Source: a phage
Assembly (NCBI GenBank): GCA_036609835.1
Contig: GCA_036609835.1_4358.1
DNA length: 44,717 nt
Reading direction: 5' to 3' (one strand)
Below are positions 8,627 through 39,922 of this stretch, piece after piece (the stretch's first letter is position 1; every line of letters begins with the position of its first letter). A program made the translations under genes and the position numbers. The notes under the pieces are model-generated. The model was not told where the DNA came from and did no database searches. It saw nothing but the letters and a program-made list of their open reading frames with translations.

Positions 8627-8655
8627 TTGCACACCCCAATATAATAGTGTACTAT
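8627..8655 (+). promoter_or_regulatory. Sigma70-type promoter TTGCAC-N17-TACTAT with AATAG-N4-CTATT palindrome, driving the plus-strand insert operon
   Basis: ttgcacaccccaatataatagtgtactat; 19-mer gcacaccccaatataatag is repeated exactly at 18182; same motif in reverse at 29839-29867. Confidence 0.6.
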
Positions 8656-8696
8656 TCACTTACACCAACGATGTTATCCCAAACAGGAGCTACACC

Positions 8697-8888
8697 ATGA
8701 CGGGTATTACTATGTTCTTCTTAATCATTATCGTTTTAGTTTATTTTATTCCATTTCTCGTGGCGCATATGCGCGACCATAAAGCGAAATTAGCGATATT
8801 CATGGCTAATCTGTTTCTTGGATGGGTTCTGCTGCCGTGGGTATTTATTTTAATCTGGGCTTGCAACTCGAATGTCAAAGAGAAGTGA
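8697..8888 (+). CDS. Small membrane protein of the superinfection-immunity (Imm-like) family, 63 aa
   Basis: ATG 8697 after AAACAGGAG; MTGITMFFLIIIVLVYFIPFLVAHMRDHKAKLAIFMANLFLGWVLLPWVFILIWA matches the YF.P..A..R.H....I...N..LGW...W...L.WA signature recalled from memory. Confidence 0.6.
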   Translation: MTGITMFFLIIIVLVYFIPFLVAHMRDHKAKLAIFMANLFLGWVLLPWVFILIWACNSNVKEK

Positions 8889-8925
8889 GCTAGTATAGGA
8901 CAAATCCTAAACACGAGGAATAAAC

Positions 8926-10056
8926 ATGGCCCGGAAGAAAATAACCGACGAACAGTTGCAGGAAGAATTGAACGCCGGTATGAAGAATGTAGATATCGCC
9001 CGTAAATACGGCATCTCAGACCGCGTTATTCGTATCCGTAAAGCGAAGCTGGCTAAGAAAGGCGTAGGCCACGGGCGCGACGTTAGTCACCTTGTACCAG
9101 ACGGTTACAAGATTAAAGGAACGTCGTCCCTGGTGGACGAGTTCGGCAACACTAAGTTGCAATGGGTTAAGACCGACGCTGATGCCGAACGTCAGGTTGA
9201 ATTGATGAAAGCCGTAATAGAGGGCATGAAGTCAGAGATTACGCCCGTTGCGCCTGTTAAACCGGCACGAGCCAAACGTGACGATAAACTACTCAATCTT
9301 TACACGGTATCTGATTTCCATCTCGGTATGCTGGCATGGGCCGATGAGAGCGGCGACGACTGGGACATGAAGATTGCAGAAGACCTGTTCTCTCGGTGGT
9401 TCGACGCGGCGTTTCAGAAAGCACCGGATGCAGGAACAGGAGTTATTAACCTGCTTGGGGACTTCGCACACTTCGATAGTCTTGATGCCGTTACCCCCGA
9501 GTCGCGCCATGTATTAGATGCGGATACTCGCTATCAGAAACTGGTACGTTACATGATTCGTATGGTCCGCCGTGTTGTTGATATGGCGCTGGTTAAGCAT
9601 CACACAGTAAAACTTTTAATCGTTCAAGGTAACCACGACCCTGTTGGCTCCGTATGGCTTGCCGAAATGTTCACGGTTTTATACTCAAACGACAGCCGAG
9701 TGATTGTTGATACGTCGCCGGATGTTTACAAGATGGTGCAACACGGCAAAACGACGCTGTTCTTCCATCACGGGCATAAAGCACGATTCGACGCTATCGA
9801 ACCGGTTATGATTGCCAAGTTCCGTAAAGCGTTCGGCGAGAGTGTTTACAGCTACGCCCACGTAGGCCATCTGCACCACCAGAAGATTGTAGAAAGCCGT
9901 AACATGATTGTTGAGCAACACCGCACCTTAGCGGCTAAAGACGCCTACGCCTCTCGCGGCGGATGGATGTCGGGCCGCAGTGCAAATGTAATTACTTATA
10001 GCGCCGAATATGGCGAGGTCGCACGTTTAACTATTTCACCGGAGATGCTGGGATGA
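8926..10056 (+). CDS. N-terminal HTH domain fused to a calcineurin-like metallophosphoesterase, 376 aa
   Basis: HTH-like NVDIARKYGISDRVIRIRKAK; phosphoesterase motifs SDFHLG, LLGDFAH, VQGNHD, FFHHGH, HVGHLHH in canonical order. Confidence 0.6.
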   Translation: MARKKITDEQLQEELNAGMKNVDIARKYGISDRVIRIRKAKLAKKGVGHGRDVSHLVPDGYKIKGTSSLVDEFGNTKLQWVKTDADAERQVELMKAVIEGMKSEITPVAPVKPARAKRDDKLLNLYTVSDFHLGMLAWADESGDDWDMKIAEDLFSRWFDAAFQKAPDAGTGVINLLGDFAHFDSLDAVTPESRHVLDADTRYQKLVRYMIRMVRRVVDMALVKHHTVKLLIVQGNHDPVGSVWLAEMFTVLYSNDSRVIVDTSPDVYKMVQHGKTTLFFHHGHKARFDAIEPVMIAKFRKAFGESVYSYAHVGHLHHQKIVESRNMIVEQHRTLAAKDAYASRGGWMSGRSANVITYSAEYGEVARLTISPEMLG

Positions 10057-10541
10057 AAGATATTGTAATTTTCGATTTAGACGGGACATTGGCCGACGGT
10101 ACCAATCGCTTACACCTGTTACCAAAAGATAACTACGGAGAAACGTGGGCGTGGAAGCCATTTAACATGGCCTGCAAAGATGACGCTCCGATATACGACA
10201 ATATCCATTTGTGTAGCGTACTGTGGCATTCCGGACTTACTATAATTATCCTTACCGGGCGAAGTGATGACGCTGAGGAGGAGACTCGCGAATGGTTACG
10301 AGAGAATAACGTTAGGTTTGACACGCTAATCATGCGCAGCAAACACGACAACAGAAAAGACATCGTAATTAAAGAAGAGGTGTTGCGTGCTTTCGGACTG
10401 GAAAGAATCTTGTGTGCGTTCGACGACTCTCCAGCGGTAATAAAGCATTTCCGTGACCTCGGCATAACCGCACACGCAGTTACCGAATACGACTGTAACG
10501 GGAACTCTACACACTTAAAACCACACGGGAGCGATAAATAA
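10053..10541 (+). CDS. HAD-family phosphatase resembling the 3'-phosphatase domain of T4 polynucleotide kinase-phosphatase, 162 aa
   Basis: DxDGT motif (IVIFDLDGTLADG), GRSDD, RKDIVIKEEVL and FDDSPAVIKHFRDLGI align by eye with T4 Pnkp C-terminal motifs; ATGA start/stop overlap. Confidence 0.6.
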   Translation: MKDIVIFDLDGTLADGTNRLHLLPKDNYGETWAWKPFNMACKDDAPIYDNIHLCSVLWHSGLTIIILTGRSDDAEEETREWLRENNVRFDTLIMRSKHDNRKDIVIKEEVLRAFGLERILCAFDDSPAVIKHFRDLGITAHAVTEYDCNGNSTHLKPHGSDK

Positions 10542-11095
10542 TGGCTAAGGTAATTATTCTTAATGGCCCTGCGGGTTGCGGGAAAGACACGCTTGCTATG
10601 GCGCTGGTAGAAATGGGCTTTGCGAAAGGAACTACCAGTTTCAAGAATCCAATGTTCAATATTGCTTTGGCAGCGTTAGGCCAGGATGCTTACCACGAAT
10701 TTCTCGACGGCTACGACGACCGGGCGCGGAAAGAAAAACCCGAGGGTTTTCTTAATGGGTTGTCCCGCCGCCGGTTAATGATTGCCATTTCTGAGCAATT
10801 CATTAAACCGGTATTCGGCGATGATTATTTCGGTAAGTATCTTGCTGAAAACTTGCCTGACGGCGACGAAGTTTTTGTAGTGTCCGATGGTGGATTCGCC
10901 AGTGAAGTTGCCCCTATCGTCGCCGCGGGGCATGACGTGCGAATCGTCCGCCTCCATCGTGACGGCTATACGTTCATCTGCGATAGCCGTGGCTATCTGT
11001 ACGATGTTAGTGGTGTAAAAGATTACGACACCTACATCATACCGGGTGACGTTAAATCGAACGTTATAGACATTGCTTTAAAATTAGGTTTGTAA
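10541..11095 (+). CDS. Deoxynucleoside monophosphate kinase-like P-loop kinase (T4 gp1-like), 184 aa
   Basis: Walker A GPAGCGKDT; RRRLMIAISEQF and VFVVSDGGFASEV...VRIVRLHRDG resemble T4 dNMP kinase blocks recalled from memory. Confidence 0.55.
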   Translation: MAKVIILNGPAGCGKDTLAMALVEMGFAKGTTSFKNPMFNIALAALGQDAYHEFLDGYDDRARKEKPEGFLNGLSRRRLMIAISEQFIKPVFGDDYFGKYLAENLPDGDEVFVVSDGGFASEVAPIVAAGHDVRIVRLHRDGYTFICDSRGYLYDVSGVKDYDTYIIPGDVKSNVIDIALKLGL

Positions 11096-17859: not shown

Positions 17860-18179
17860 GTTTCCCCCTTTCTCGATAAGTAAAGCCCCGCCTTAAAGCG
17901 GGGCGCTAGTCCTTATCATTTAAACATAGAAACGGCGTAATCTCAGTAAACCCGTTACTTTTTACACAAGCAATAGAGTATGGCCCTTCCGAACGCGTCA
18001 GCGTAACTACACTCAGGACTTACGTCCCGCTCCGTTACCTGCCCGCGCCGCGGTCGCTTGTTCATACTTCACAAGCTCAGGTGGAGCTTATCATATTTTT
18101 AGTGAAAAGTCAACTATTCGAATAGTTTATTCCAACATTTACAATTCGGAGGAATAACTGGAATACGTAAATAAATAGT

Positions 18180-18208
18180 TTGCACACCCCAATATAATAG
18201 GGTACTAT
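18180..18208 (+). promoter_or_regulatory. Sigma70-type promoter TTGCAC-N17-TACTAT, near-identical to the one at 8627
   Basis: ttgcacaccccaatataatagggtactat followed by AAACAGGAGG RBS and ATG 18236. Confidence 0.6.
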
Positions 18209-18235
18209 TCAGTTAACTTAAACAGGAGGTGAAAA

Positions 18236-18439
18236 ATGTATGCAATTTGCGAAGTAGTTCAAGAGTTCGATGAAGAGTTCGACGGTGACTTGTGCCGGGT
18301 TAAAAAGGTTCTGCAGGTTTTCCCTGACGCAATGTCTGCTTACAAGGCATTAGATATATTTGAACCTGGAAGATACGGGGATTATGACACTGTTCTGAGG
18401 GTTGTCCATGAGCAGGATTTAAACACAAGATTCCGTTGA
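18236..18439 (+). CDS. Hypothetical protein, 67 aa (moron)
   Basis: Opposite strand to flanking head genes; own promoter, strong RBS and downstream terminator; acidic. Confidence 0.6.
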   Translation: MYAICEVVQEFDEEFDGDLCRVKKVLQVFPDAMSAYKALDIFEPGRYGDYDTVLRVVHEQDLNTRFR

Positions 18440-20115: not shown

Positions 20116-20769
20116 ATGAAACTGCAAACATTAGAGTTCCCTTATGGAGAAATCACTTTTGACCGTGAAAACTTTATTAACGTAAACGAGCTGGTTGACC
20201 AGATGAACCGTTGGCGTTTAGACAACGGCATGGGGGCCAGAGAGCTTCGCCAGGTCATGGCAACGGATGGCTTCAAGATTTTCAAGGAGGAATGCGAAAA
20301 ACAACTCGGAATCGAGAATGCCATAAGGGCGACGAAAGGCCGAAACGGTCGCACCTTTGCATGTCTCCATCTGGCAGTATATATTGCTGAGCAATACAGC
20401 GCCTATTTCCATTTCCTCGTTATCGACCGCTTTATCACACAACGGCAGGTAGAACTACGAAACATTGGCGCGGTGAGCTTTGTCGAGCTTAACGCTGCCG
20501 TTAGTCGAATGATCGAGCGCACGGAGGGAAGAATTGGCCACAGTGGACACTTCATACAGGTGGCTAAAGCGGTAAAGGAATCCGTAGATATCCGCGACGT
20601 AACGGGTTTCGATACATGGGACTCTCAGGATGCGAAGACCAATCAGTTGCGAAGTGACATCCAGAAAGCTCTGGTGACGCTTCTTGACATGGAGGCCGTT
20701 AATACATGGGGTGAACTGAAAGAGGCGATACCTCGGGTTGTGCGTAAATGTGCGGCTAATATACGTTAA
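20116..20769 (+). CDS. KilA-N-like domain protein (putative), 217 aa (moron)
   Basis: KGRNGRTFACLHLAVYIAEQYSAYFHF resembles the conserved KilA-N core; own promoter/operator and terminator; opposite strand to portal and head genes. Confidence 0.45.
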   Translation: MKLQTLEFPYGEITFDRENFINVNELVDQMNRWRLDNGMGARELRQVMATDGFKIFKEECEKQLGIENAIRATKGRNGRTFACLHLAVYIAEQYSAYFHFLVIDRFITQRQVELRNIGAVSFVELNAAVSRMIERTEGRIGHSGHFIQVAKAVKESVDIRDVTGFDTWDSQDAKTNQLRSDIQKALVTLLDMEAVNTWGELKEAIPRVVRKCAANIR

Positions 20770-26150: not shown

Positions 26151-26169
26151 ACTAGTCATTGCAGAAAAT

Positions 26170-27309: not shown

Positions 27310-27384
27310 GATGAATCCTCCAGGTGCGTATTAAGTATGCAGTAACTGGAGGATAGCACGGTTAGGAATTATCTTAATAACGGT

Positions 27385-27678
27385 TTATTTATGACGCCAG
27401 ATGTATTGTCGTCTCTGCGGTTTCGATGGAATATCATCGTATCCCAGCGATTTCCAGTAATTAAATAACCGATTAGCGATTGCCGCGCGTTCCTGTGTTT
27501 TAAACTCTCCCAGGTTCACGGCCCTCCCGTTCTGGAATCCGCAGGCGCGTACCGCTTTACGTCTGGCCTGGACCTCGGGGTACAGCGCGTTACGGCGACG
27601 CTTGTATATCCTGGTGTTTGTTCTCGGTGACAGCGGCGCAATGCCGCTGCGTTTCAGGATGTCAGTTGCTAGTGACAT
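27385..27678 (-). CDS. Basic protein of unknown function (possible DNA-binding), 97 aa
   Basis: ATG 27678 with GGAGA RBS; Arg/Lys-rich (IYKRRRNALYPEVQARRKAVR). Confidence 0.45.
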   Translation of the reverse strand: MSLATDILKRSGIAPLSPRTNTRIYKRRRNALYPEVQARRKAVRACGFQNGRAVNLGEFKTQERAAIANRLFNYWKSLGYDDIPSKPQRRQYIWRHK

Positions 27679-27880
27679 TGCGATACTTCTCCAGAATCTC
27701 ACCTACCCTATCGTATGCGTATTCGTCCGGTATTAATCCGTAACCCAGGTCATTGTCCAGCTTAACTAACATATCGAGGATACCATTCAGATTGGCTTCA
27801 AGTTCCTTATAGTCTTCGTACGATACAAACACCCCTGCGCCATCAGGTTCACCCGTATAATAGTTATATCTCTGCACCAT
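27662..27880 (-). CDS. Hypothetical early protein, 72 aa; paralog of 27880..28155
   Basis: Starts MVQRYNYYTG and contains VSYEDYKELE, matching MVQRYETYG and VSYEDYAKLE in the adjacent ORF. Confidence 0.5.
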   Translation of the reverse strand: MVQRYNYYTGEPDGAGVFVSYEDYKELEANLNGILDMLVKLDNDLGYGLIPDEYAYDRVGEILEKYRNVTSN

Positions 27881-28155
27881 CACTCCACCCCTTCCACATG
27901 TGTAATTGACCCACAGTTCGCGCACTCGACGTAATCAGGGTACTGGCCTTTGTATTTCTGTAACTCGGCTTCCGCTTTTTCTGCCCGTGTCAAAAAGCTG
28001 AAAGCGTCATTGAGTATCTGCACACGCCACGCCATGAGTTCACTGAACTTACGCTCAAGTTTCGCGTAGTCTTCGTAACTTACAAGATTACCCGCATCAC
28101 ATTTGTAAACTTCCAGCTCCCAGTCAAACCCGTATGTTTCGTATCTCTGTACCAT
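27880..28155 (-). CDS. Hypothetical early protein, 91 aa; paralog of 27662..27880, with Cys-rich tail
   Basis: ATG 28155 after AGGAGAAG; C-terminal YVECANCGSITH. Confidence 0.5.
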   Translation of the reverse strand: MVQRYETYGFDWELEVYKCDAGNLVSYEDYAKLERKFSELMAWRVQILNDAFSFLTRAEKAEAELQKYKGQYPDYVECANCGSITHVEGVE

Positions 28156-28157
28156 AA

Positions 28158-28361
28158 TCACTTCTCCTGTTTACCAAGTCGCTTAGGTGAGCAGATAGCG
28201 CGTACCTCTGAATCGTTTGGCTTGTCGCCCTGGAACAGGAAGTGCGCGTTCTCTGCGGCGCGTGCCGCTGACTGGCACGCCTCCATCGAATAAAACGTTT
28301 CTGATGCCGCTAGTTGCATCTGGCCCGCCGACAATACCCAGATAAATAAGATGCTGGTCAT
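28158..28361 (-). CDS. Small protein with signal-peptide-like N-terminus, 67 aa
   Basis: ATG 28361 (ATGA overlap); MTSILFIWVLSAGQMQLAAS then hydrophilic domain. Confidence 0.45.
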   Translation of the reverse strand: MTSILFIWVLSAGQMQLAASETFYSMEACQSAARAAENAHFLFQGDKPNDSEVRAICSPKRLGKQEK

Positions 28362-28717
28362 GCTAATTCCCTGCATTTCTTGCACACCAAATAATCCTCG
28401 TCGGCATCTAGCACCCAATCATGCTCACCTATTTGGCAACCGGATTGCTCTGTCTTAACCCCACTCTCGACCTTGAAGACTTTACCTTTCTCGTCGAAAT
28501 ATGCGGTAGACCATCTATGCACACCCGCCGCCATGTCAATTTGATGCTGTAACTCGCTCTGCAACTCAGCCACCAGCGCCGACGCATCACGTAACTGATT
28601 CTTAAGTGACAGCACCTCATGTGCCAGGTCTTCGCACTGTTGCTTGTATGGGTGGCTATTTACGTGCTGCCGTAACTGGTCAATCAGGTACTCGAATACT
28701 TCGTTTTTAGTGTTCAT
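28358..28717 (-). CDS. Hypothetical early protein with C-terminal Cys/His cluster, 119 aa
   Basis: Helical N-terminus; C-terminal CQIGEHDW...CKKC. Confidence 0.5.
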   Translation of the reverse strand: MNTKNEVFEYLIDQLRQHVNSHPYKQQCEDLAHEVLSLKNQLRDASALVAELQSELQHQIDMAAGVHRWSTAYFDEKGKVFKVESGVKTEQSGCQIGEHDWVLDADEDYLVCKKCRELA

Positions 28718-28866
28718 ATTCTTCGCTCACCCCGTTATAGACGCCGTTGTAGTCCCCGTCGCAGATGAACGTGTAGAGCATATCTTCGTACTCGTCCTGC
28801 AACTCACCTAAAGTTACTTCGCTATAATCTTTCATCTTCTGTCTCTCCTCTAGTTTGTGTAAATGA

Positions 28867-28895
28867 ATAGTAGCCTATTCTATCTTAGTGTGCAA
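28867..28895 (-). promoter_or_regulatory. Sigma70-type promoter TTGCAC-N17-TACTAT (minus strand)
   Basis: Reverse complement reads ttgcacactaagatagaataggctactat. Confidence 0.55.
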
Positions 28896-29009: not shown

Positions 29010-29043
29010 AAGTCACAAAGCCAAATAGTAAACTATTGACCTG

Positions 29044-29229
29044 TTACACCTCCGGCGGCTCAGGTAACGGCATCCAGTGCGTTATATCACCGTGATATAA
29101 ACTCTTTGCAGGCCCCCAGTAGCCATCTGAATTAACACGCATAACCTCACAACCGACAAAACCATCAGTTACAAGAACGTATTCATAAGGCTCCGGCATC
29201 CGCTCGCTACACTTAATCCACTCGCCCAT
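29044..29229 (-). CDS. DUF551-like small protein, 61 aa
   Basis: GAGGTGAG RBS; C-terminal DITHWMPLPEPP resembles the DUF551 signature as recalled. Confidence 0.5.
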   Translation of the reverse strand: MGEWIKCSERMPEPYEYVLVTDGFVGCEVMRVNSDGYWGPAKSLYHGDITHWMPLPEPPEV

Positions 29230-29232
29230 ATC

Positions 29233-29376
29233 TCACCTCGTATTCATCGCATACTGCACACCAGCTTTCCACATCCGCCACGCGAGACGCGTCTTAGCGC
29301 TAAGGTACTCGTTCCGCGAGCCCTTGTTGACAGGCAGACCATCTGCAACGGCCCGACGTTCAAATGCTTCTCTCAT
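29233..29376 (-). CDS. Small hypothetical protein, 47 aa (not in ORF track)
   Basis: ATG 29376 in ATGA overlap with upstream ORF; stop 4 nt before DUF551 start. Confidence 0.3.
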   Translation of the reverse strand: MREAFERRAVADGLPVNKGSRNEYLSAKTRLAWRMWKAGVQYAMNTR

Positions 29377-29528
29377 ACCAGAACCTCGCATTCATCCCGA
29401 TACACGAACAATAATGACCCTTTGTACTCAATCATAAAACCATAATGGTTGCTGCTGAACGCCAGAAAAACATCACCTACCGAGATACCGAAATCTATAA
29501 GCCTGCGGTCAGTTATACGGATTCGCAT
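29373..29528 (-). CDS. Small hypothetical protein, 51 aa (not in ORF track)
   Basis: ATG 29528 preceded by GAGGGAGG RBS. Confidence 0.35.
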   Translation of the reverse strand: MRIRITDRRLIDFGISVGDVFLAFSSNHYGFMIEYKGSLLFVYRDECEVLV

Positions 29529-29585
29529 TAACGGCAACCTCCCTCAGAGTCGTCGGCACGAGCATCATGATTAGATGCCGTGGGT

Positions 29586-29804
29586 TTATTTAAAGTAGAT
29601 AGCAAATTTCTTGTAACCCGCTGGCTCGTTACGAAGTCCTTTACCGTTAGCGAAACGTTGTACGTTAACAAAATCATTTTCATCCATTCCGTCGGTGTCG
29701 AACGTAAAGAAGTTGCGCTTGTTCCCGATAATTACGCGCTCTGAGATATCGATGCCGTAAACTTCTTTGATTGCGGAAACTACGCTTGCGGTCGCTTTGT
29801 TCAT
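29586..29804 (-). CDS. First leftward early protein, unknown function, 72 aa
   Basis: ATG 29804 about 35 nt downstream of promoter 29839-29867; AAGGAA RBS. Confidence 0.55.
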   Translation of the reverse strand: MNKATASVVSAIKEVYGIDISERVIIGNKRNFFTFDTDGMDENDFVNVQRFANGKGLRNEPAGYKKFAIYFK

Positions 29805-29838
29805 TTCTAAATTCCTTATGTCTCGTTTCGATAAGTGA

Positions 29839-29867
29839 ATAGTATCCTATTATGTTGGGGTGTGCAA
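29839..29867 (-). promoter_or_regulatory. Leftward early promoter TTGCAC-N17-TACTAT with AATAG-N4-CTATT palindrome
   Basis: Reverse complement ttgcacaccccaacataataggatactat; near-identical to plus-strand promoters at 8627 and 18180. Confidence 0.6.
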
Positions 29868-30285: not shown

Positions 30286-30468
30286 ATGTCGCATTATATG
30301 ACGCAGAATGAAGTAGCTGAACGTATCGGGGTGACACGTCAGACAATTAATAACTGGTTGCGCAGCGGCAAATTCCCTGACTGCTGTATTAAGGTTATGG
30401 GCCGCCGTTTACCGGGAACATTTGACCGTAATAAAGTCGAAGCATGGATTAAGGAGAACGTGAAATGA
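30286..30468 (+). CDS. Small HTH DNA-binding protein (AlpA/excisionase-like), 60 aa
   Basis: ATG 30286 after AAACAGGAGA; MTQNEVAERIGVTRQTINNWLRSGKFP is a classic HTH. Confidence 0.6.
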   Translation: MSHYMTQNEVAERIGVTRQTINNWLRSGKFPDCCIKVMGRRLPGTFDRNKVEAWIKENVK

Positions 30469-33199: not shown

Positions 33200-33218
33200 A
33201 AGGGGCTTTAAGCCCCTT
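33200..33218. terminator. Hairpin terminator between convergent primase and regulator genes
   Basis: aaggggctttaagcccctt. Confidence 0.55.
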
Positions 33219-33423
33219 CACCGAACGCCAGCCACTTGGCGTCTACTTGCAGCACTTCCGCCAGTTTGAACAGCGTTGCCGGGCGGACGTCCTGAGTTAC
33301 TCCAAGTGCCAGTTGGTTAATCGCGCCCTGGGAAACGCCGGTCAGGGCCGCCAAACGGCGCTGGGAGATGCCGAGTTCTTTACGGCGTTGTTCTACACGG
33401 ATACCTAGTTCAGATGGTTGCAT
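33208..33423 (-). CDS. XRE-family HTH transcriptional regulator (Cro/CI-like), 71 aa
   Basis: QRRKELGISQRRLAALTGVSQGAINQLALG is a canonical XRE helix-turn-helix; divergent from rightward promoters. Confidence 0.7.
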   Translation of the reverse strand: MQPSELGIRVEQRRKELGISQRRLAALTGVSQGAINQLALGVTQDVRPATLFKLAEVLQVDAKWLAFGEGA

Positions 33424-33487
33424 GTCAATTACTCCTTAGTCAGTTGATATGTGAATAGTACCATATTAATTATTTTAGAAAAGCCCA

Positions 33488-33516
33488 TTGACATGTGAAT
33501 AGTTCGCTATTATAGT
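33488..33516 (+). promoter_or_regulatory. Rightward promoter TTGACA-N17-TATAGT with AATAG-N4-CTATT palindrome in the spacer
   Basis: ttgacatgtgaatagttcgctattatagt; a second related element (ttgatatgtgaatagtaccatat) lies at 33443-33465. Confidence 0.65.
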
Positions 33517-33544: not shown

Positions 33545-33772
33545 ATGAACACAATAACGGGAGCCATAGCTAAAGGTTTTCTAGCAATTTTCGGAGAATC
33601 GCAGGAAGTGTGCACAAAACATAAATTTGTACTTTCTTGCGTAGTAGGGGACGAGTTTGATGGGTTCGATAAACTTGTTGTCTGCGACCATTGCGGGCAA
33701 GAAGCTATTCAACACCCAAACGGTAAATTTGAATTAATAGACGATAGCCTTACAGAAGGCGACGGCGAGTAA
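33545..33772 (+). CDS. Small Cys-containing protein, 75 aa
   Basis: GAGAGGGG RBS; C...C and CDHCG cysteines suggest metal binding. Confidence 0.5.
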   Translation: MNTITGAIAKGFLAIFGESQEVCTKHKFVLSCVVGDEFDGFDKLVVCDHCGQEAIQHPNGKFELIDDSLTEGDGE

Positions 33773-33796
33773 CCCAAATAAACAGGAGAATAAATA

Positions 33797-34315
33797 ATGT
33801 TAGAGAAATTCTTAGTATTACTGGAACGTTTCGTAGTTGCGCATGAACTGATTGCTGCGAACAGTGCACGCCGTACTGAACTGCCGAAGGCTATCACGGC
33901 GCCATATGGTAAAGACGTCGACAGTGGTGTCGCAGAAACTGCAACAATCACGCCTACTGTTGTAAAAGAAGAAACAAAAGAAATCCCGGTCGAGGGTGAA
34001 GACGTAGTTGACACTAAACCGGCAGAAGAAGAGAAGCCGAAACGCAAGCCGCGTAAAGCTAAAGTAGAGGAACCTGCGCCAGAACCGGAAGAAGAGAAAG
34101 AAGAAGTCGATTACAAGTCTCTGCGTGACCAGATTCAGGCCATCGACGATGCAATTAATGAAGGTCCTAGCGATGCCGCGTGCGATGATTCTGATGAACT
34201 GCTGGAAGAGTTCACCGGCAAGAAAATGAAGATTGCCGCGATTAAAGACGAAGACCTGGCTGAATATCTGGAACGCCTGACGGCAATCAAGAACAAGTAT
34301 TTCGAAGAAGAATAA
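33797..34315 (+). CDS. Strongly acidic protein of unknown function, 172 aa
   Basis: AAACAGGAGAA RBS; C-terminal half dominated by Glu/Asp (EEPAPEPEEEKEEVDY, DDSDELLEEF). Confidence 0.55.
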   Translation: MLEKFLVLLERFVVAHELIAANSARRTELPKAITAPYGKDVDSGVAETATITPTVVKEETKEIPVEGEDVVDTKPAEEEKPKRKPRKAKVEEPAPEPEEEKEEVDYKSLRDQIQAIDDAINEGPSDAACDDSDELLEEFTGKKMKIAAIKDEDLAEYLERLTAIKNKYFEEE

Positions 34316-34322
34316 CTATCCC

Positions 34323-34341
34323 GCGGCCTTCGGGCCGCTTT
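34323..34341 (+). terminator. Hairpin terminator / attenuator
   Basis: gcggccttcgggccgc followed by ttt. Confidence 0.45.
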
Positions 34342-34358
34342 AACCTAGGGTCGGAATT

Positions 34359-34562
34359 ATGGCTATTTTAGCTAAGAAAAGTGGTCTTATGATTTCAGGG
34401 CGAGTTATAGAAGAAACAGATAACTTTGTATGCTTCCACGCGACAGATAACAAACGTCCTACGTATGTACAAAAGTCGGATAAAACACAAAAAGTTTTCG
34501 ACGGCGATTTTTCTATCGAAGATGTTTTCACGTGGATTAATTCTGCGAGGGTAAAGAAATGA
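34359..34562 (+). CDS. Hypothetical protein, 67 aa
   Basis: ORF with downstream ATGA coupling. Confidence 0.45.
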   Translation: MAILAKKSGLMISGRVIEETDNFVCFHATDNKRPTYVQKSDKTQKVFDGDFSIEDVFTWINSARVKK

Positions 34563-34831
34563 TTTACCAACTCTACCGCGCCGTTGACAGGCGGGATAGC
34601 GCAGAGGCGCTATGGCTATTGCGCGCGCCGTCCGGTGCGCACCAGATGGAAGAGATGGCTTACTTAGGCAAAGTACCGAGGCCTAAAGATATAGGCCGCC
34701 ACGTGTCGCAGATTAAGCGCACGACTTTCGCCAAGCCAGACTTTTATGTCTTTGAGTCGATGTATGGGTGGGCTATGCACTGTGACCACAAGACACGACA
34801 TTTAATTGACCAGTGGGAGAACAGGGTATGA
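34559..34831 (+). CDS. Hypothetical protein, 90 aa
   Basis: ATGA-coupled on both sides. Confidence 0.45.
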   Translation: MIYQLYRAVDRRDSAEALWLLRAPSGAHQMEEMAYLGKVPRPKDIGRHVSQIKRTTFAKPDFYVFESMYGWAMHCDHKTRHLIDQWENRV

Positions 34832-36069
34832 TTTTAAAGGAACGTGGGGGCAATAACGATGTGCATGCCTTACTGTCGCCGTCAGGTGCTAAAAAATGGC
34901 TGTCATGCGCTGCATCACTGGCATGTGAGAAAGATATCCCTAACACGTCTGGTAAAGCCGCTGTATTAGGAACCGCCATGCACACCATAGCTGAGGTCCA
35001 TCTCAACGCCTATATACGCGGCACTGCGTTGCCGTTGGAGCGTGAAGTCGGCGCTTACGTACTGGATGAAGGCAAAGGTCAGATTAAGGCGCTAATCAGC
35101 CCGATGAAAGGCGCGGTACTGATTACGGCGGACATGATTGAGCAGGTGCGCAAGTACACCGACTACTGCAAAGCGATTATAGATGTAGCGACTTACGCCA
35201 AGCTGGAAATGCGTGTTAATCTTACTGAGGTATTGCATCCGGGGTATGAAGGCGTTGAGACGTTCGGAACCGCTGACCTCGTTGCTGTCCAGGAACTGGC
35301 AAACACCGACGAGCACATGCTCATTATCGGCGACCTGAAAACCGGGCGGCATCGCGTCGAAGCGAAAGAAAACAAGCAGCTTATGCTTTACGCTCTCGGT
35401 GTTTATCGTCGACTCAAGAGACGTTATAACATAACAACCGTTCGTCTGGTCATCTTCCAGCCTTACGCTGGGGGTGCGACAGAGTGGGACATCTCGGTTG
35501 AAGGACTGGAACTGTTCGCTAAGTTCGCGCAGAAACGCGCGCTGTTAGCGCTTGATGCGTATTTCCGTGGCAAGAAGAACCTGAAAGCGTCGGACTTCAA
35601 GCCATCGGTAGATGGTTGTCAGTGGTGCCGGTTCTCTGAACAATGCGCTGCGCGTACAAAGACGGTTAATTCTGTACTGGCGGAAGAACTGGAAGACGAC
35701 TTTGTGCTGGAACTGACGCCGGAGCAACTCGTAGCTGAGTATGAGAAGTTGCCGCTGTTGCGCCAGCACATCGACAAGGTTGAGAAAGCTATGGCGGCCG
35801 CGTTGCATTCAGGTAAGAAAGTTCCTGGTTACAAGTTGGTTGAAGGCCGCCCGGGTAATCGCGCATGGAAGGATACCGATGCGGTATTCGAAAAGTACGG
35901 TACTATGCTGCAAAAGGTAGTTCTCATGACGCCGACCGAAGCTGTTAAAGTTATACCGGAAGAAGAACTGAAAGACTTTATTACTCGTAACCCCGGCGCG
36001 CCATGTGTTGCAACGGCAGACGACAAGCGTCCTGAGTGGAATCAGGTAACAGAGGAGGATTTAGAATGA
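34828..36069 (+). CDS. PD-(D/E)XK nuclease (DUF2800/Cas4-like), about 414 aa
   Basis: ATG 34828 (ATGA overlap); N-terminal HALLSPSGAKKWLSCAAS; internal D..E.K-type nuclease residues (IGDLKTGRH). Confidence 0.6.
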   Translation: MILKERGGNNDVHALLSPSGAKKWLSCAASLACEKDIPNTSGKAAVLGTAMHTIAEVHLNAYIRGTALPLEREVGAYVLDEGKGQIKALISPMKGAVLITADMIEQVRKYTDYCKAIIDVATYAKLEMRVNLTEVLHPGYEGVETFGTADLVAVQELANTDEHMLIIGDLKTGRHRVEAKENKQLMLYALGVYRRLKRRYNITTVRLVIFQPYAGGATEWDISVEGLELFAKFAQKRALLALDAYFRGKKNLKASDFKPSVDGCQWCRFSEQCAARTKTVNSVLAEELEDDFVLELTPEQLVAEYEKLPLLRQHIDKVEKAMAAALHSGKKVPGYKLVEGRPGNRAWKDTDAVFEKYGTMLQKVVLMTPTEAVKVIPEEELKDFITRNPGAPCVATADDKRPEWNQVTEEDLE

Positions 36070-36317
36070 TTCGTAAAATGTTCAGAGTAATTGGCGGTTT
36101 TGTGGCGTGTATTGTTTTCTGGGTTCTTATGCTACCCCTAACGCTACCAACATTTATCTTAATGTGTATTACGGTATGTATAGCGCAAACTCGCGACATA
36201 GAAGCCATCCTGAGTGATAAATCGTGGAAGACACAGGCGCTTCGATTCATAAACAGCATGAAATGGCCTAACAAATATATCGAGATAGTTGAGAAAATAA
36301 CTGGCTGGAAGGGTTGA
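36066..36317 (+). CDS. Small membrane protein, 83 aa
   Basis: ATG 36066 (ATGA overlap); two hydrophobic helices. Confidence 0.45.
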   Translation: MIRKMFRVIGGFVACIVFWVLMLPLTLPTFILMCITVCIAQTRDIEAILSDKSWKTQALRFINSMKWPNKYIEIVEKITGWKG

Positions 36318-36342
36318 CACCTGAATAGTTAGCTATTATAGT
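36314..36342 (+). promoter_or_regulatory. Promoter TTGACA-N17-TATAGT with AATAG-N4-CTATT palindrome, upstream of the SSB gene
   Basis: ttgacacctgaatagttagctattatagt. Confidence 0.6.
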
Positions 36343-37096: not shown

Positions 37097-37255
37097 ATGA
37101 TGTTTTTCTGTAAGCACGTATACCGATATATGAAGTCACTTCCGTGGTACGCGGATGAGTACCGTGCCGGGTACAGGCATGTGTGGATTTGCCGTGATTG
37201 TATGAAAATAAGACTCAGCGAAACTAAGGCACTGGATTTAAGGAAAAAGAAATGA
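37097..37255 (+). CDS. Small Cys/His protein, 52 aa (not in ORF track), coupled to DNA polymerase
   Basis: Stop overlaps polymerase ATG (ATGA); weak RBS. Confidence 0.25.
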   Translation: MMFFCKHVYRYMKSLPWYADEYRAGYRHVWICRDCMKIRLSETKALDLRKKK

Positions 37256-39432
37256 GCTACTTATACCTGGACTTTGAAACATTCTCCGAAGCCGATTTAA
37301 AGAAAGTCGGTTCCTATGCTTACGCCGAGCATCCGACTACAGAAGTGCTCATCTGTACCTATGCTTTTGATGACGAGCCTGTACAGGTATGGGATTGCAC
37401 CGACGGCAGCGACATGCCGGGGGATTTGCACCGCGCACTGCGCCGCCTTGTTAAGCCCAACAGCCGCATCAAGATGGTGTGGCACAACGGTGGACTTTTC
37501 GATCGCCTAATCATGAAACACTGCTGGGGCTTTGATATTCCGGTAAGTAACACCATTGATACTATGATTTGGGCGTTCCGTCACGCGCTGCCGGGTTCTC
37601 TTGATGCGCTGTGCGAAGTGCTGGGCGTGTCTGCAGACAACGCGAAAGATAAACGCGGCAAGGCTCTGATTAAGCGTTTCTCTAAACCGACGCCGAAGAA
37701 CTACAAAATCCGCCGCTACACCGCAGAAACTCACCCTGACGAGTGGGCGATGTTCATCGGGTACGCCGTGCGCGACATCACTGCGATGCGTGAAGTCTTC
37801 CATAAGCTGCCGCGTTGGGGTAACTCCGAGTTCGAAGACCGTGTACTGGAACTTGACCAGTTAATCAACGACCGCGGATTTAAGGTTGACGTCGCACTGG
37901 CGGAAGCCGCGATTGAAGCCGTAGAGAAGCACAAGGCACAGTTACAGGAAGAAGCTCAACGTAAATACGGCGGCTCGCTTACCGGTAAAGACTTCCTTCC
38001 GATTCTGCGTGAACTTGCGCCCGCGCACCGCATACACAATGCACAGAAGTCGACGCTTAACGACCTGTTGGCAGATGATGATTTACCGGACGACGCCCGG
38101 ATGATTATCGAAATGCGCCTCGGGGCCGCGTCAACAGCGTCCACGAAATATAACCCGCTGCTGTTAGGCCGCTCGTCGGACGACCGACGCCGCGGTTGTA
38201 TCCAGTACGGTGGGGCAAAGCGTACGTTACGGTTCGCGGGTAAAGGCTTCCAGCCACAGAACCTGGCGCGTGGGTACTATCACGATGATGAACTGGATAA
38301 AGGCATTTCAGCGTTACTTAAGGGCCGGGCGCACCGCCGATTTGACGTAGCCAAGCTGACGGCATCTACCGTTCGTAGCTGCATTATACCGGAAGCTGGG
38401 CATAAGTTTGTCGTCGCCGATTACTCTAACGTTGAGGGTCGCGGGCTTGCGTGGCTGGCAGGCGAAGAAACCGCGCTAGATACGTTCCGCGCCGGACTGG
38501 ATATTTACTGCGTAACAGCAGGTAAGATGTTTGGCATGGAGCCGGATTACATTAAGAAAGAACGTAAAGACTTACGCCAGATTGGTAAAGCCTGCGAATT
38601 GGGCCTCGGATACGCGGGCGGTGTCGGTGCTTTCGTTCAGTTCGCCAAGAACCTCGGCCTTGACCTTGTAGATATGGCAAAAACAATGGATGGGACTTTC
38701 CCTGACCACATCTGGGCCGCTACCGCGCGCGGGTACGAGTGGGCGCGTATTCAGGAAGCCAAGCGACCACCGCGTCCGGGTGAAAAGGATGACCGACCAT
38801 CATATATTCTTGATAAGAAAGTCTGGCGTACATGCGACGCAATTAAGCGTATGTGGCGGGAGTCCCACCCGGAAACAGTAGCTTTCTGGCGTGATATTGA
38901 AGACGCAGCTATGGCAGCAATCCGTAATCCGGGGAAAGAGTTCACCGCTGGCCCTCGCGGGGTTAAGTTTTCTCGCAACGTAGAAACAGACAACAACGGC
39001 AACAAAGTCGCTGGTTGGTGGTTGCGCATGACGTTGCCGTCAGGTCGCGTTATGTCATACCCGGGCGTCGGGTTGAGCGTGTCAAAAGAGACAGACGAAG
39101 ACGGAAAAGTTTCTACTAACGTGCGCATCAAGTATCAGGGTGAAAATCAGTTAACCAGGCAGTGGGGCTTCCAGTACACCTACTCCGGTAAACTGGTGGA
39201 AAACTGCACTCAGGCGCTGTGCCGTGATTTGCTGGCTAACGCCCTGCTGAACGTAGAGGCAAACGGCTACCCTATTGTGCTTCATGTACACGATGAGATT
39301 ATCTGCGAGACACCTGATTTACCGGAATACAATGTTGCAGAGCTTGAGCGGTTGATGTGTGAATTACCGGAATGGGCGGAGGGGTTCCCTCTTGTGGCGG
39401 AAGGTGCGGAGATGAAGCGCTATGCTAAGTAA
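37252..39432 (+). CDS. Family A DNA polymerase with N-terminal 3'-5' exonuclease domain, 726 aa
   Basis: Exo motif LDFETFS; polymerase motifs VVADYSNVEGR, RQIGKACELGLGYAGG, LHVHDEI. Confidence 0.8.
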   Translation: MSYLYLDFETFSEADLKKVGSYAYAEHPTTEVLICTYAFDDEPVQVWDCTDGSDMPGDLHRALRRLVKPNSRIKMVWHNGGLFDRLIMKHCWGFDIPVSNTIDTMIWAFRHALPGSLDALCEVLGVSADNAKDKRGKALIKRFSKPTPKNYKIRRYTAETHPDEWAMFIGYAVRDITAMREVFHKLPRWGNSEFEDRVLELDQLINDRGFKVDVALAEAAIEAVEKHKAQLQEEAQRKYGGSLTGKDFLPILRELAPAHRIHNAQKSTLNDLLADDDLPDDARMIIEMRLGAASTASTKYNPLLLGRSSDDRRRGCIQYGGAKRTLRFAGKGFQPQNLARGYYHDDELDKGISALLKGRAHRRFDVAKLTASTVRSCIIPEAGHKFVVADYSNVEGRGLAWLAGEETALDTFRAGLDIYCVTAGKMFGMEPDYIKKERKDLRQIGKACELGLGYAGGVGAFVQFAKNLGLDLVDMAKTMDGTFPDHIWAATARGYEWARIQEAKRPPRPGEKDDRPSYILDKKVWRTCDAIKRMWRESHPETVAFWRDIEDAAMAAIRNPGKEFTAGPRGVKFSRNVETDNNGNKVAGWWLRMTLPSGRVMSYPGVGLSVSKETDEDGKVSTNVRIKYQGENQLTRQWGFQYTYSGKLVENCTQALCRDLLANALLNVEANGYPIVLHVHDEIICETPDLPEYNVAELERLMCELPEWAEGFPLVAEGAEMKRYAK

Positions 39433-39634
39433 ACTGATTATCGCGGTACTGGCGGGATTCGCCGCCGGTGTCTACTGCCACGAGGGCCAATACGGCATGA
39501 TGGTCGCCGTATTAGGTATGTTCATCGCAATTTATCTGTGGGTGCCGGAATGAAAATTTACTGGTTTTATGAGGAAGACTGCCGAATCTGTCCGCGCTGC
39601 GGTATTGAGCATACGAAACGTGAGGGGTGTATAG

Positions 39635-39922
39635 ATGAGTACGCCTGAGGGGCGCATACAGAAATACGCAAAAGAGCGATTCGAGGCCATCGGGGGCCTC
39701 GTCCGTAAACTGTCTTATGAGGGGCGCTCCGGCGCTCCCGACCTGCTGGTAATTCTCCCGGGCGGCATCGTCTGGTTCGTCGAGGTGAAGAAAGACGAAA
39801 GCACGAAGCCTGACCCACACCAGTTACGAGAGCATGAGCGGATGCGTAAACGTGGTGCGAATGTTTTTGTCGTCGGGTCGTTCAAACAGGTTGACGACCT
39901 AATAGCGAACTATTATAGTTAG
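39635..39922 (+). CDS. VRR-NUC domain nuclease, 95 aa
   Basis: GAPDLLVILPGGIVWFVEVKKDE carries the D...E.K core. Confidence 0.6.
   Translation: MSTPEGRIQKYAKERFEAIGGLVRKLSYEGRSGAPDLLVILPGGIVWFVEVKKDESTKPDPHQLREHERMRKRGANVFVVGSFKQVDDLIANYYS
39887..39915 (+). promoter_or_regulatory. Promoter TTGACG-N17-TATAGT with AACTAT/ATAGTT palindrome, inside the 3' end of the VRR-NUC gene
   Basis: ttgacgacctaatagcgaactattatagt; downstream tagttagccctacacc matches the 33488 promoter. Confidence 0.5.

What the first reader, a model, noticed from the sequence alone, without database searches (positions are those of the whole stretch)
8627..39915. Family of near-identical promoters sharing an AATAG-N4-CTATT palindrome
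At least eight promoter-like elements share a conserved core. One class is TTGCAC-N17-TACTATTCA (8627 plus, 18180 plus, 28867 minus, 29839 minus). A second is TTGACA/G-N17-TATAGTTAGCC (33488, 36314, 39887, all plus). A related element lies at 33443 and a perfect 16-bp palindrome aactattcgaatagtt at 18111-18126. Each contains an inverted repeat AATAG-N4-CTATT or AACTAT-ATAGTT in the spacer or -10 region. The 19-mer gcacaccccaatataatag is exact between 8628 and 18183, which is very unlikely by chance in 44 kb. This points to one phage or host regulator acting on all early units, including the inserts inside the late cluster.
Basis: seen in the sequence. Interest (0 to 1): 0.6.

Follow-up and report, generated by a model that had tools for sequence, protein, structure and literature searches.

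The report
Shared repressor site on phage promoters
A lytic E. coli phage (genus Kagunavirus) carries the same 14-base symmetric site, AATAG-N4-CTATT, on the core of about ten of its promoters, most likely as the docking site for the phage's own small 434-Cro-like repressor; the repeated motif is already listed in two genome papers, but its reading as an operator is not.

Summary
AATAG-N4-CTATT occurs 8 times exactly (0.07 expected) and 3 times with one mismatch, and all the named promoter-like elements exist with small coordinate offsets. The window is a Kagunavirus genome (virulent E. coli siphophage, no phage RNA polymerase).

The dyad is the commonest 5+5 palindrome, alone or tied, in all 51 Kagunavirus- and Jerseyvirus-like sequences examined: 215 perfect copies in 0.97 Mb, about 1.5 expected. 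It is absent from more distant relatives. At orthologous promoters the half-sites stay fixed while the central 4 bp (27 variants) and the flanks drift. The dyad sits at three positions relative to the -35/-10 hexamers, and one conserved copy has no promoter. This pattern fits a dimeric protein's operator, not shared promoter ancestry alone.

The best candidate binder is the 71-aa HTH_3 protein at 33208..33423 (-). It is closest in sequence and fold to 434 Cro, and 434 operators have the same 5-4-5, 14-bp layout. Its gene lies next to two dyads, and its recognition helix is invariant across Kagunavirus. The AlpA-like protein is disfavoured.

Binding and repression are inferred, not shown. The motif was already catalogued by PHIRE in two Kagunavirus papers, one of which labelled it 'phage RNAP promoter'. 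Moderate interest.

The parts
8627..8656 (+). Class-1 promoter: -35 TTGCAC 8627-8632, 17-nt spacer, -10 TACTAT 8650-8655. Perfect dyad AATAGTGTACTATT at 8643-8656 (centre about -12.5). It drives the plus-strand insert 8697..11095 inside the tail genes: superinfection-immunity protein, metallophosphatase-like protein, HAD/PNKP phosphatase.
   Evidence: Sequence; dyad; Pfam Imm_superinfect, Metallophos_2 (below its cut-off) and HAD_PNKP; orthologue in fBC-Eco01 at 15131.
18180..18209 (+). Class-1 promoter: -35 TTGCAC 18180-18185, -10 TACTAT 18203-18208. Perfect dyad at 18196-18209. It drives the 67-aa gene 18236..18439, which lies among the head genes.
   Evidence: 21-nt exact identity with 8627-8647.
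18085..18127 (-). Possible class-3 promoter on the minus strand: -35 TTGACT 18113..18108, 17-nt spacer, weak -10 TAAGCT 18090..18085. A one-mismatch dyad (AAAAGTCAACTATT, 18105-18118) covers the -35 and overlaps the 16-bp palindrome 18112-18127. It faces the head and tail genes that start at 17859.
   Evidence: the same arrangement is in fBC-Eco01 at 6154. The promoter assignment is inferred and weak.
26123..26156 (-). Class-3 promoter: -35 TTGACT 26151..26146, 17-nt spacer, -10 TATATT 26128..26123. A one-mismatch dyad (plus strand AATAGTCAACTAGT, 26143-26156) is centred on the -35. It lies just after a terminator that follows the endolysin gene, and it leads into 25943.. and on towards the terminase genes.
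   Evidence: 10 of 12 hexamer matches. Found in 29 of the 37 Kagunavirus-like IMG/VR loci and in fBC-Eco01; where it is missing, most loci end before that position. In Jerseyvirus the mismatch is in the other half-site.
28866..28895 (-). Class-1 promoter: -35 TTGCAC 28895..28890, -10 TACTAT 28872..28867. Perfect dyad at 28866-28879. It drives a small gene starting near 28835, then 28717..24453 (small genes, holins, endolysin).
29024..29037 (.). Perfect dyad with no recognisable promoter. It lies between the stop of 29044..29229 (-) and the terminator 29010-28989, 158 bp centre to centre from the 28866 dyad.
   Evidence: Present in a subset of Kagunavirus loci with a variable centre (ttta, gtta, ctta) and fixed half-sites.
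29838..29867 (-). Class-1 promoter: -35 TTGCAC 29867..29862, -10 TACTAT 29844..29839. Perfect dyad at 29838-29851. It drives the small genes 29804..29044.
33208..33423 (-). Gene for the 71-aa HTH_3 (XRE/Cro-type) protein, the proposed dyad-binding repressor. It is monocistronic, with its own Shine-Dalgarno sequence and a terminator at 33219-33199.
   Evidence: Pfam HTH_3, E = 1.9e-13. Best solved relative is 434 Cro, E = 2e-6, aligned over almost the full length. AF2 model has five helices, pLDDT 81. Foldseek top hits are the 434 repressor DNA-binding domain and 434 Cro. The recognition helix is essentially invariant in Kagunavirus.
33454..33467 (-). One-mismatch dyad (AATAGTACCATATT) in the promoter region of the Cro-like gene. 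It overlaps a minus-strand TACTAT at 33460..33455, or lies at about +1 of the alternative promoter TTCACA-16-TAAAAT (33499..33472). It is 44 bp from the 33498 dyad and is the presumed autoregulatory site.
   Evidence: The 43-45 bp spacing holds in all 39 Kagunavirus-like sequences.
33488..33516 (+). Class-2 promoter: TTGACA-N17-TATAGT, with a perfect dyad at 33498-33511 inside the spacer (centre about -18.5). It is divergent from the Cro-like gene and drives 33545..36317, including the DUF2800/PD-(D/E)XK nuclease.
   Evidence: (11 of 12).
36314..36342 (+). Class-2 promoter: TTGACA-N17-TATAGT, with a perfect dyad at 36324-36337. It drives the ssDNA-binding protein and DNA polymerase A genes.
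   Evidence: (11 of 12). Orthologues located without using the dyad all keep it.
39891..39919 (+). Class-2 promoter: TTGACG-N17-TATAGT, with a perfect dyad at 39901-39914. It drives 39953.., the C5 methylase and the SNF2 helicase.
   Evidence: (10 of 12).

Best explanation
The 14-bp dyad AATAG-N4-CTATT is an operator placed on the core of most of this virulent phage's sigma-70-type promoters. A dimer of the phage's own 71-aa 434-Cro-like HTH protein (33208..33423, minus strand) most likely binds it, one monomer per AATAG half-site, leaving the central 4 bp uncontacted.

The dyad covers about -25 to -12 in class 2 promoters, -19 to -6 in class 1 and -40 to -27 in class 3. A bound dimer would therefore block host RNA polymerase. 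The protein would act as a genome-wide turn-down repressor of phage transcription, as Cro does at lambdoid early promoters, and would also regulate its own gene through the weaker dyad at 33454.

**Shown:** the sites exist, they are non-random, and their half-sites are selectively conserved; the protein belongs to the 434 Cro/repressor fold.

**Inferred:** that this protein is the binder, that the elements fire as promoters, and that binding represses.
For: 1. Eight exact copies against 0.07 expected. There are 215 perfect copies in 51 Kagunavirus/Jerseyvirus sequences (0.97 Mb) against about 1.5 expected. It is the top or tied-top 5+5 palindrome in every one of them.
2. At orthologous promoters the half-sites are near-invariant, while the central 4 bp, the 4 nt between the -35 and the dyad, and the upstream flanks vary. 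There are 27 distinct central tetramers.
3. SSB-promoter orthologues located by downstream sequence alone all keep the dyad (24 unique Kagunavirus, 8 Jerseyvirus). When the spacer is 18 nt, the extra base falls outside the dyad.
4. The dyad occupies three positions relative to the hexamers, and one copy has no promoter. So it is an element in its own right, not a by-product of one ancestral promoter.
5. The base flanking each half-site is T in 36 of 36 Jerseyvirus half-sites but G or T in Kagunavirus. This concerted, lineage-specific change fits a phage-encoded partner, although the two genera also infect different hosts.
6. The protein has an HTH_3 domain. Its best PDB hit is 434 Cro, also 71 aa, aligned over residues 6-68. 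The fold search is topped by the 434 repressor DNA-binding domain and 434 Cro. 434 operators are 14 bp with 5-4-5 symmetry and a non-contacted centre (established knowledge; central indirect readout is cited in PMC3317979).
7. The gene is divergent from a dyad promoter, with a second, weaker dyad 43-45 bp away in all 39 Kagunavirus-like sequences.
8. The helix-3 segment GVSQGAINQLALGVTQDVR is essentially invariant (two single-residue variants among 39 Kagunavirus-like proteins), including in a protein only 78% identical overall.
9. Relatives whose homologue is only 39-41% identical (SE1-like) have no such dyad family.
Against: - No binding, footprint or transcript 5'-end data exist for any of these phages.
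- Jerseyvirus proteins differ from Kagunavirus at four helix-3 positions (SQSLITH against SQGAINQ) yet keep the AATAG core. The specificity link is therefore not clean.
- The phyletic pattern also fits anything else shared by the two genera, and host factors could not be screened.
- Class-1 -35 hexamers (TTGCAC) match the consensus at only 3 of 6 positions, so promoter strength and start sites are uncertain.
- It is not obvious why a lytic phage would repress nearly all of its promoters with one protein.
- The only RNA-seq study of a Kagunavirus is too coarse to help.
Confidence: 0.6

Rival explanations
1. A host transcription factor or nucleoid protein common to Escherichia, Salmonella and Raoultella binds the dyad, and the phage has placed the site on its promoters to couple its expression to host physiology.
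For: No binding data exclude it. The dyad core is the same in phages of different enterobacterial hosts, while the phage HTH recognition helix differs between the two genera.
Against: I could not recall any E. coli regulator with this 5-4-5 AATAG/CTATT site (recall only, not a search). The flank base changes in concert between the genera. SE1-like Salmonella phages with homologous promoters have let the dyad decay. A phage-encoded protein of the right type sits beside two of the sites.
Confidence: 0.1
2. The AlpA-like HTH_17 protein (30286..30468), or another phage DNA-binding protein, is the binder rather than the Cro-like protein.
For: The AlpA-like gene is present in Kagunavirus and Jerseyvirus (about 80% identity) and absent from SE1-like phages that lack the dyad. 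Its distribution therefore also tracks the dyad.
Against: Locus L038 is a full 20-kb locus with six perfect dyads and no AlpA-like gene. That position holds unrelated 149-aa and 47-aa ORFs. HTH_17/excisionase-type proteins do not typically read 14-bp 5-4-5 palindromes (established knowledge). The promoter of the AlpA-like gene has no dyad.
Confidence: 0.07
3. No regulator is involved. The elements are copies of one promoter cassette kept similar by descent and by selection for promoter strength. The symmetry reflects overlapping -10-like hexamers on both strands (bidirectional promoters). In the wording of one genome paper, they would be promoters for a phage RNA polymerase.
For: The promoters also share a leader (..ACACCAAACGAGAGGAG..). 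Class-1 sites at 8643, 18196 and 29838 lie in divergent intergenic regions. The opposite strand at 8643 reads TTGGTG-N16-TATTAT, and in Jerseyvirus LP31 both strands at 17683 have plausible hexamers. PHIRE lists the elements as promoters.
Against: The dyad lies at three positions relative to the hexamers. In class 2 it lies wholly in the spacer, which normally tolerates sequence change, yet its half-sites are as conserved as the hexamers while the centre varies. One conserved copy has no promoter. Class-2 sites have no gene on the other strand. No RNA polymerase gene is found in the window or in the annotated relatives.
Confidence: 0.12
4. The Cro-like protein binds the dyad but acts as an activator or a class-specific switch rather than a general repressor. 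For example, it might activate the class-3 promoters, where the dyad covers the -35.
For: Both class-3 sites are imperfect and lead towards the packaging and structural genes. 434 repressor activates P_RM from an adjacent operator (established knowledge).
Against: Sites centred at -12.5, -18.5 and -33.5 overlap RNA polymerase contacts, which is the usual position for repression. The -35 and -10 hexamers and the 17-nt spacers already look adequate without an activator.
Confidence: 0.1

Closest known systems
Phage 434 Cro / 434 repressor and their 14-bp operators (OR1-3, OL1-3)
   Same: The protein has the same length (71 aa) and the same five-helix HTH_3 fold. 434 Cro is the best sequence and structure match. 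The operator is 14 bp with two 5-bp half-sites and a 4-bp centre that tolerates change. The gene is divergent from a regulated early promoter, with two operators between them.
   Different: The half-site sequence differs (AATAG against ACAAG/T). There is one operator per promoter rather than tandem triplets. About eleven sites are spread over the whole genome instead of two clusters. No CI partner, integrase or lysogeny module is annotated in the relatives, which their authors describe as lytic. Binding is not demonstrated.
Lambda Cro turn-down of early transcription during lytic growth
   Same: The proposed logic is the same: a small early-made repressor lowers transcription from the phage's own strong sigma-70 promoters as infection proceeds.
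   Different: Lambda Cro has a different fold, acts only at OL and OR, and works alongside N and Q antitermination. Here the sites also cover accessory ('moron') and lysis-side units, and no antiterminator has been identified.
Stoperators of cluster A mycobacteriophages (L5 gp71 sites)
   Same: One phage repressor has many copies of a short site distributed across the genome.
   Different: By established knowledge, stoperators are asymmetric 13-14-bp sites that lie inside transcription units, are oriented with transcription, and are bound by the immunity repressor of a temperate phage. Here the sites are symmetric, lie on promoter cores (except 29024), and belong to a lytic phage.
PHIRE 'phage-specific promoters' reported for Kagunavirus phages VB_EcoS-Golestan and fBC-Eco01
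   Same: These are the same elements. The seven 20-mers per genome include TAATAGGGTACTATTCATTA and TGAATAGTACCCTATTATAT, with the published consensus tgAATAGTa-ccTATTat-T.
   Different: Those papers list them as promoters, in one case as 'phage RNAP promoters'. They do not note the dyad, its variable centre, its different positions relative to the hexamers, or a candidate binding protein. The phages encode no RNA polymerase.
Controller (C) proteins of restriction-modification systems and their C-boxes
   Same: Small HTH_3 dimers of similar fold (C.AhdI and C.BclI appear) bind short dyads that overlap the promoters they control, including their own.
   Different: C proteins control a single operon through paired C-boxes and combine activation with repression. 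Here many unrelated operons carry a single dyad each.

Membership tests
434 Cro/repressor-type HTH_3 (XRE) operator-binding proteins | HTH_3 helix-turn-helix domain | tested here: met
   PF01381, E = 1.9e-13, 50.6 bits against a cut-off of 23.
434 Cro/repressor-type HTH_3 (XRE) operator-binding proteins | Single-domain protein of about 70 aa with a five-helix fold superposable on 434 Cro or the 434 repressor N-terminal domain | tested here: met
   phmmer gives 434 Cro at E = 2e-6 over residues 6-68. The AF2 model has five helices and pLDDT 81. Foldseek top hits are 1pra, 2cro and 3cro, with TM-scores 0.72-0.78 and 36-40% identity.
434 Cro/repressor-type HTH_3 (XRE) operator-binding proteins | Cognate site is a 14-bp dyad with conserved outer half-sites and a tolerant 4-bp centre | tested here: met
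   The site geometry is AATAG-N4-CTATT. The half-sites are fixed and there are 27 central tetramers among 215 copies. This tests the site, not the protein-site pairing.
434 Cro/repressor-type HTH_3 (XRE) operator-binding proteins | Dimer binds the operator specifically | not testable with these tools
   Needs EMSA, footprinting or ChIP. No protein-DNA complex prediction tool is available here.
Lambdoid immunity switch (CI/Cro bistable module) | Paired CI-type repressor gene with a cleavable C-terminal domain, tripartite operators, and a lysogeny module | tested here: not met
   Only one short HTH_3 gene lies at the divergent promoter. There are two dyads, not three. No integrase or CI is annotated in the relatives, which are described as lytic.
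Sigma-70-dependent promoters | -35 and -10 hexamers with a 16-18-nt spacer, placed upstream of a gene with a ribosome-binding site | tested here: met
   Class 2 and P26151 match 10-11 of 12 hexamer positions. By my own count from the sequence, class 1 matches 8 of 12 (TTGCAC/TACTAT), so it fell below the scan threshold. All lie 30-60 nt upstream of start codons.
Sigma-70-dependent promoters | Mapped transcription start sites | not testable with these tools
   No 5'-end data exist. The only Kagunavirus RNA-seq paper reports gene-level time classes.
Phage single-subunit RNA polymerase promoters (label used in PMC9825357) | The phage encodes its own RNA polymerase | tested here: not met
   No RNA polymerase appears in the annotations of fBC-Eco01, LP31 or SE1 or in Pfam scans of the large ORFs of the window.
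Stoperator-type dispersed repressor sites | Asymmetric sites inside transcription units, oriented with transcription | tested here: not met
   The sites are palindromic and lie on promoter cores. Only 29024 is promoter-less.

The most novel reading that the evidence does not exclude
A strictly lytic phage lineage (Kagunavirus plus Jerseyvirus) runs its whole host-polymerase-dependent programme with a single 434-Cro-like protein.

Operator quality and position would set the timing. Perfect dyads over the spacer or the -10 would shut off the replication, accessory and small-gene units as the protein accumulates. The imperfect dyads over the -35 of the promoters leading into the packaging and structural genes would stay open longer.

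The promoter-less dyad would act as a helper site for looping onto P28867. In five loci it lies 158, 158, 159, 169 or 169 bp from the P28867 dyad, close to 15 or 16 helical turns.
Probability: 0.2. Interest if true: 0.6.

Novelty: new member of a known kind. Interest (0 to 1): 0.4.

Why it matters
Kagunavirus and Jerseyvirus phages are widely isolated and are proposed for therapy and food safety, yet how they order their gene expression without their own RNA polymerase or sigma factor is undescribed. A single small repressor with about ten operators would give a simple, testable model of their transcription programme.

It would also correct the 'phage RNAP promoter' label in the literature. 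In addition, it would supply a compact set of strong E. coli promoters switchable by one 71-aa protein, useful for phage engineering.

If the reading is wrong, the finding is still an ordinary, previously listed family of conserved phage promoters.

Tried and rejected
- **Phage RNA polymerase promoters** (label in PMC9825357): rejected, because no polymerase gene is present.
- **AlpA-like protein as binder:** disfavoured by L038.
- **Co-variation test in distant relatives:** SE1-like phages (homologue 39-41% identical) and Dhillonvirus have no multi-copy dyad of any sequence, only decayed remnants at homologous promoters. No alternative half-site was available to pair with an altered recognition helix.
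- **RNA-level explanation:** most of each dyad lies upstream of the predicted start sites, and a 5-bp A/U stem would be weak. There is no Rfam match anywhere in the window.
- **Kagunavirus RNA-seq paper (PMC12645636):** it reports only three coarse time classes, and its supplement did not give the phage gene table. One HTH gene is among its four earliest-peaking genes, but I could not tell which.
- **Host-factor screening** (scanning E. coli or Salmonella genomes for the 10-specified-base dyad) is not possible with the available pattern tools.
- **Alternative -10 for class 1** (TATAAT, CATAAT or TAGAAT just upstream of AG): no consistent -35 accompanies it, although ATCACA-17-TATAAT scores 10 of 12 at 8617.
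- **Further literature searches** for Guernseyvirinae operators or Cro found nothing.

Full report
**What the window is.** The 12 kb around the finding matches Kagunavirus genomes at about 90% identity (Guernseyvirinae; E. coli siphophages such as JSSK01 and BASEL Bas70-76). It matches hundreds of Salmonella Jerseyvirus genomes at 80-90%. The annotated relative fBC-Eco01 is collinear in reverse orientation and gives the gene map.
- Minus strand: tail, head, portal, terminase, lysis and small genes.
- Plus strand: the primase/helicase operon and the replication genes. These are the DUF2800 nuclease, an Enc34-type SSB, PolA, a C5 methylase and an SNF2 helicase.
- Three short plus-strand inserts sit inside the structural genes.
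- No RNA polymerase or sigma factor is annotated in relatives or found by Pfam. Transcription must therefore use host polymerase.

**Checking the observation.**
- Four elements read TTGCAC-N17-TACTAT(TCA): 8627+, 18180+, 28867- and 29839-.
- Three read TTGAC(A/G)-N17-TATAGT: 33488+, 36314+ and 39891+. The simple consensus scan ranks these three among its best hits, at 10-11 of 12.
- AATAG-N4-CTATT occurs 8 times exactly against 0.07 expected, and no shuffle had more than one.
- Three more copies have one mismatch (18105, 26143, 33454). Two-mismatch matches are no more common than chance, so the family is sharply bounded.
- It is the commonest 5+5 palindrome in the window at any spacing.
- Small corrections: the third class-2 -35 starts at 39891; the 16-bp palindrome is 18112-18127; the exact shared string is 21 nt long.

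**Anatomy.** The dyad sits at three positions relative to the promoter hexamers.
- Class 2: it lies inside the 17-nt spacer, centred near -18.5. Its last T is the first base of the -10.
- Class 1: it is shifted 6 bp downstream, centred near -12.5, and its right half is part of the -10 TACTAT.
- Class 3: a one-mismatch dyad is centred on the -35 TTGACT.
  - P26151(-) is TTGACT-17-TATATT at 10 of 12. It lies directly after the terminator that follows the endolysin gene.
  - A weaker candidate is on the minus strand at 18113..18085.
- The copy at 29024 has no recognisable hexamers. It lies between a stop codon and a terminator.
- The one-mismatch copy at 33454 lies in the promoter region of the minus-strand HTH gene 33208..33423, 44 bp from the perfect dyad of the divergent P33488.
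- All the promoters share a similar leader with a Shine-Dalgarno sequence.

**Comparative evidence.** I fetched one more Kagunavirus, one Jerseyvirus, one SE1-like phage and one Dhillonvirus genome. I also fetched 60 IMG/VR loci of up to 20 kb around homologues of the HTH gene.
- The dyad is the top or tied-top palindrome in all 39 Kagunavirus-like and all 12 Jerseyvirus-like sequences. It is absent from SE1-like loci, Dhillonvirus and more distant loci.
- In total there are 215 perfect copies in 0.97 Mb, where about 1.5 are expected, with 27 different central tetramers.
- The sites are syntenic in the order P39891, P36314, P33488 plus the HTH-gene site at 43-45 bp, P29839, optionally the promoter-less site, P28867, P26151.
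- Column by column, the ten half-site positions are at least as conserved as the -35 and -10. The central four bases, the bases between the -35 and the dyad, and everything upstream of the -35 vary.
- To avoid selecting on the dyad itself, I located SSB-promoter orthologues by their downstream sequence alone. All 24 unique Kagunavirus and 8 Jerseyvirus versions keep the dyad with at most one mismatch, although four unrelated upstream sequences are attached. Where the spacer is 18 nt, the extra base lies between the -35 and the dyad.
- Between the genera, the spacer and centre are rewritten (cctg/ttag against agtt/tact) while AATAG and CTATT stay.
- The base outside each half-site is T in 36 of 36 Jerseyvirus half-sites but G or T in Kagunavirus.

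This pattern has four parts: fixed half-sites, a free centre, mobility relative to the hexamers, and a conserved promoter-less copy. It is what an operator for a dimeric protein looks like. Common descent of a promoter cassette does not explain it.

**Who binds.** Two small HTH genes are candidates.
- The 71-aa product of 33208..33423 has an HTH_3 domain.
- Its best match among all solved structures is 434 Cro, also 71 aa, aligned over residues 6-68 at E = 2e-6.
- A single-sequence AlphaFold model has five helices and pLDDT 81. Foldseek's first hits are the 434 repressor DNA-binding domain and 434 Cro at 36-40% identity.
- By established knowledge, 434 operators are 14 bp with conserved outer half-sites and a centre read only indirectly; PMC3317979 cites that central readout. 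This is the same 5-4-5 geometry as the dyad here.
- The gene is a self-contained unit, with its own ribosome-binding site and terminator. It lies back to back with a dyad promoter and has a weaker dyad on its own promoter. This layout is typical of an autoregulated repressor.
- Its helix-3 segment is essentially invariant across Kagunavirus (two single-residue variants among 39 proteins), even in a protein only 78% identical overall.
- The other candidate, the AlpA-like HTH_17 protein (30286..30468), is also confined to the two dyad-bearing genera. However, locus L038 keeps six perfect dyads with that gene replaced by unrelated ORFs, and its own promoter lacks the dyad.
- A host factor cannot be excluded with these tools. 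The lineage-specific flank change and the decay of the dyad in SE1-like Salmonella phages argue against it.

**Caution on the specificity link.** Jerseyvirus proteins differ at four helix-3 positions yet keep the AATAG core.

**How it most likely works.** At all three positions a bound dimer would overlap RNA polymerase contacts, so the simplest reading is repression. The protein would be a Cro-like turn-down factor acting on most phage promoters and on its own. The two promoters that lead towards the packaging and structural genes carry only imperfect dyads. This would fit a graded, affinity-based order of shut-off, but that is speculation.

Not every promoter candidate carries the dyad.
- TTGCTT-17-TATACT upstream of the AlpA/primase operon lacks it.
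- The 11-of-12 promoter at 30188(-) and TGTACA-18-TATAAT upstream of the small terminase gene also lack it.

**What is already known.** Two Kagunavirus genome papers list these same 20-mers as PHIRE output, seven per genome. They are VB_EcoS-Golestan (Supplementary Table S4) and fBC-Eco01 (Supplementary Table S2, consensus tgAATAGTa-ccTATTat-T). fBC-Eco01 labels them 'phage RNAP promoters', which the gene content contradicts. Neither paper mentions the dyad, its variable centre, its different positions or a binding protein. I found no paper on Guernseyvirinae operators or Cro-like regulation.

The repeated motif is thus known, while the operator and repressor reading appears new but conventional in kind.

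**Verdict.** I file this as a new member of the Cro/434-type repressor-operator kind, deployed unusually widely in a lytic phage. Interest is moderate (0.4), and all functional steps await a binding assay and 5'-end mapping.

Noticed in passing
window 20055-20086: A different perfect dyad, AAATTCTACAT-TCAA-ATGTAGAATTT (11-4-11, 20061-20086), overlaps a promoter-like TTGATT-18-TAGAAT just upstream of the plus-strand gene 20116..20769. That gene has a weak KilA-N match, below the Pfam cut-off. In fBC-Eco01 the same genomic position holds a different gene behind a class-1 AATAG dyad promoter. The insert and its control site therefore seem to have been swapped together.
   Followed up: partly
window 29935-30188 (minus strand): A near-consensus promoter (TTGAAA-18-TATAAT, 11 of 12) without the dyad points into about 210 nt with no obvious ORF. 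The stretch contains a 15-bp hairpin (30100-30133) and ends at the terminator 29959-29940. As RNA it folds at -69.6 kcal/mol, z = -4.6 against shuffles, with no Rfam match. It could be a small RNA, or an origin-like structure next to the primase operon.
   Followed up: partly
window 29024-29037 vs 28866-28879; loci L006, L008, L026, L038, L010, L014: The promoter-less dyad lies 158, 158, 159, 169 or 169 bp from the P28867 dyad in five sequences, close to 15 or 16 helical turns. In two others the distance is 326 and 373 bp. This hints at looping, but the sample is small and the sequences are related.
   Followed up: partly
window 17885-17904: A strong terminator-like hairpin (GCCCCGC-TTTAAG-GCGGGGC followed by a T-rich tail on the minus strand) sits inside the roughly 230-nt leader between the possible minus-strand promoter at 18113 and the first gene of the head cluster (17859). 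This suggests regulated read-through.
   Followed up: no
window, downstream of every dyad promoter (e.g. 8657-8696, 33517-33544, 28865-28836): The promoters share a conserved leader, roughly (C/T)ACACCAAACGAGAGGAG, ending in the Shine-Dalgarno sequence. Promoter, operator and translation start therefore seem to move as one cassette.
   Followed up: no
L038 12559-13144 (minus strand of the locus): In this Kagunavirus-like contig the AlpA-like gene is replaced by a 149-aa ORF and a 47-aa ORF with CxxC...CxxC spacing (zinc-finger-like). The first genes of the primase operon appear to be exchangeable.
   Followed up: no
L003 (Salmonella phage SE1) 6781-7002 and L052-L055: In SE1-like Guernseyvirinae the Cro-like homologue (39-41% identity) is the first gene of the primase operon rather than a separate antisense unit. 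The AlpA-like gene is absent, and homologous promoters keep only remnants of the dyad (for example TTGACActgaATTATtaaaCTATTATATTA).
   Followed up: partly
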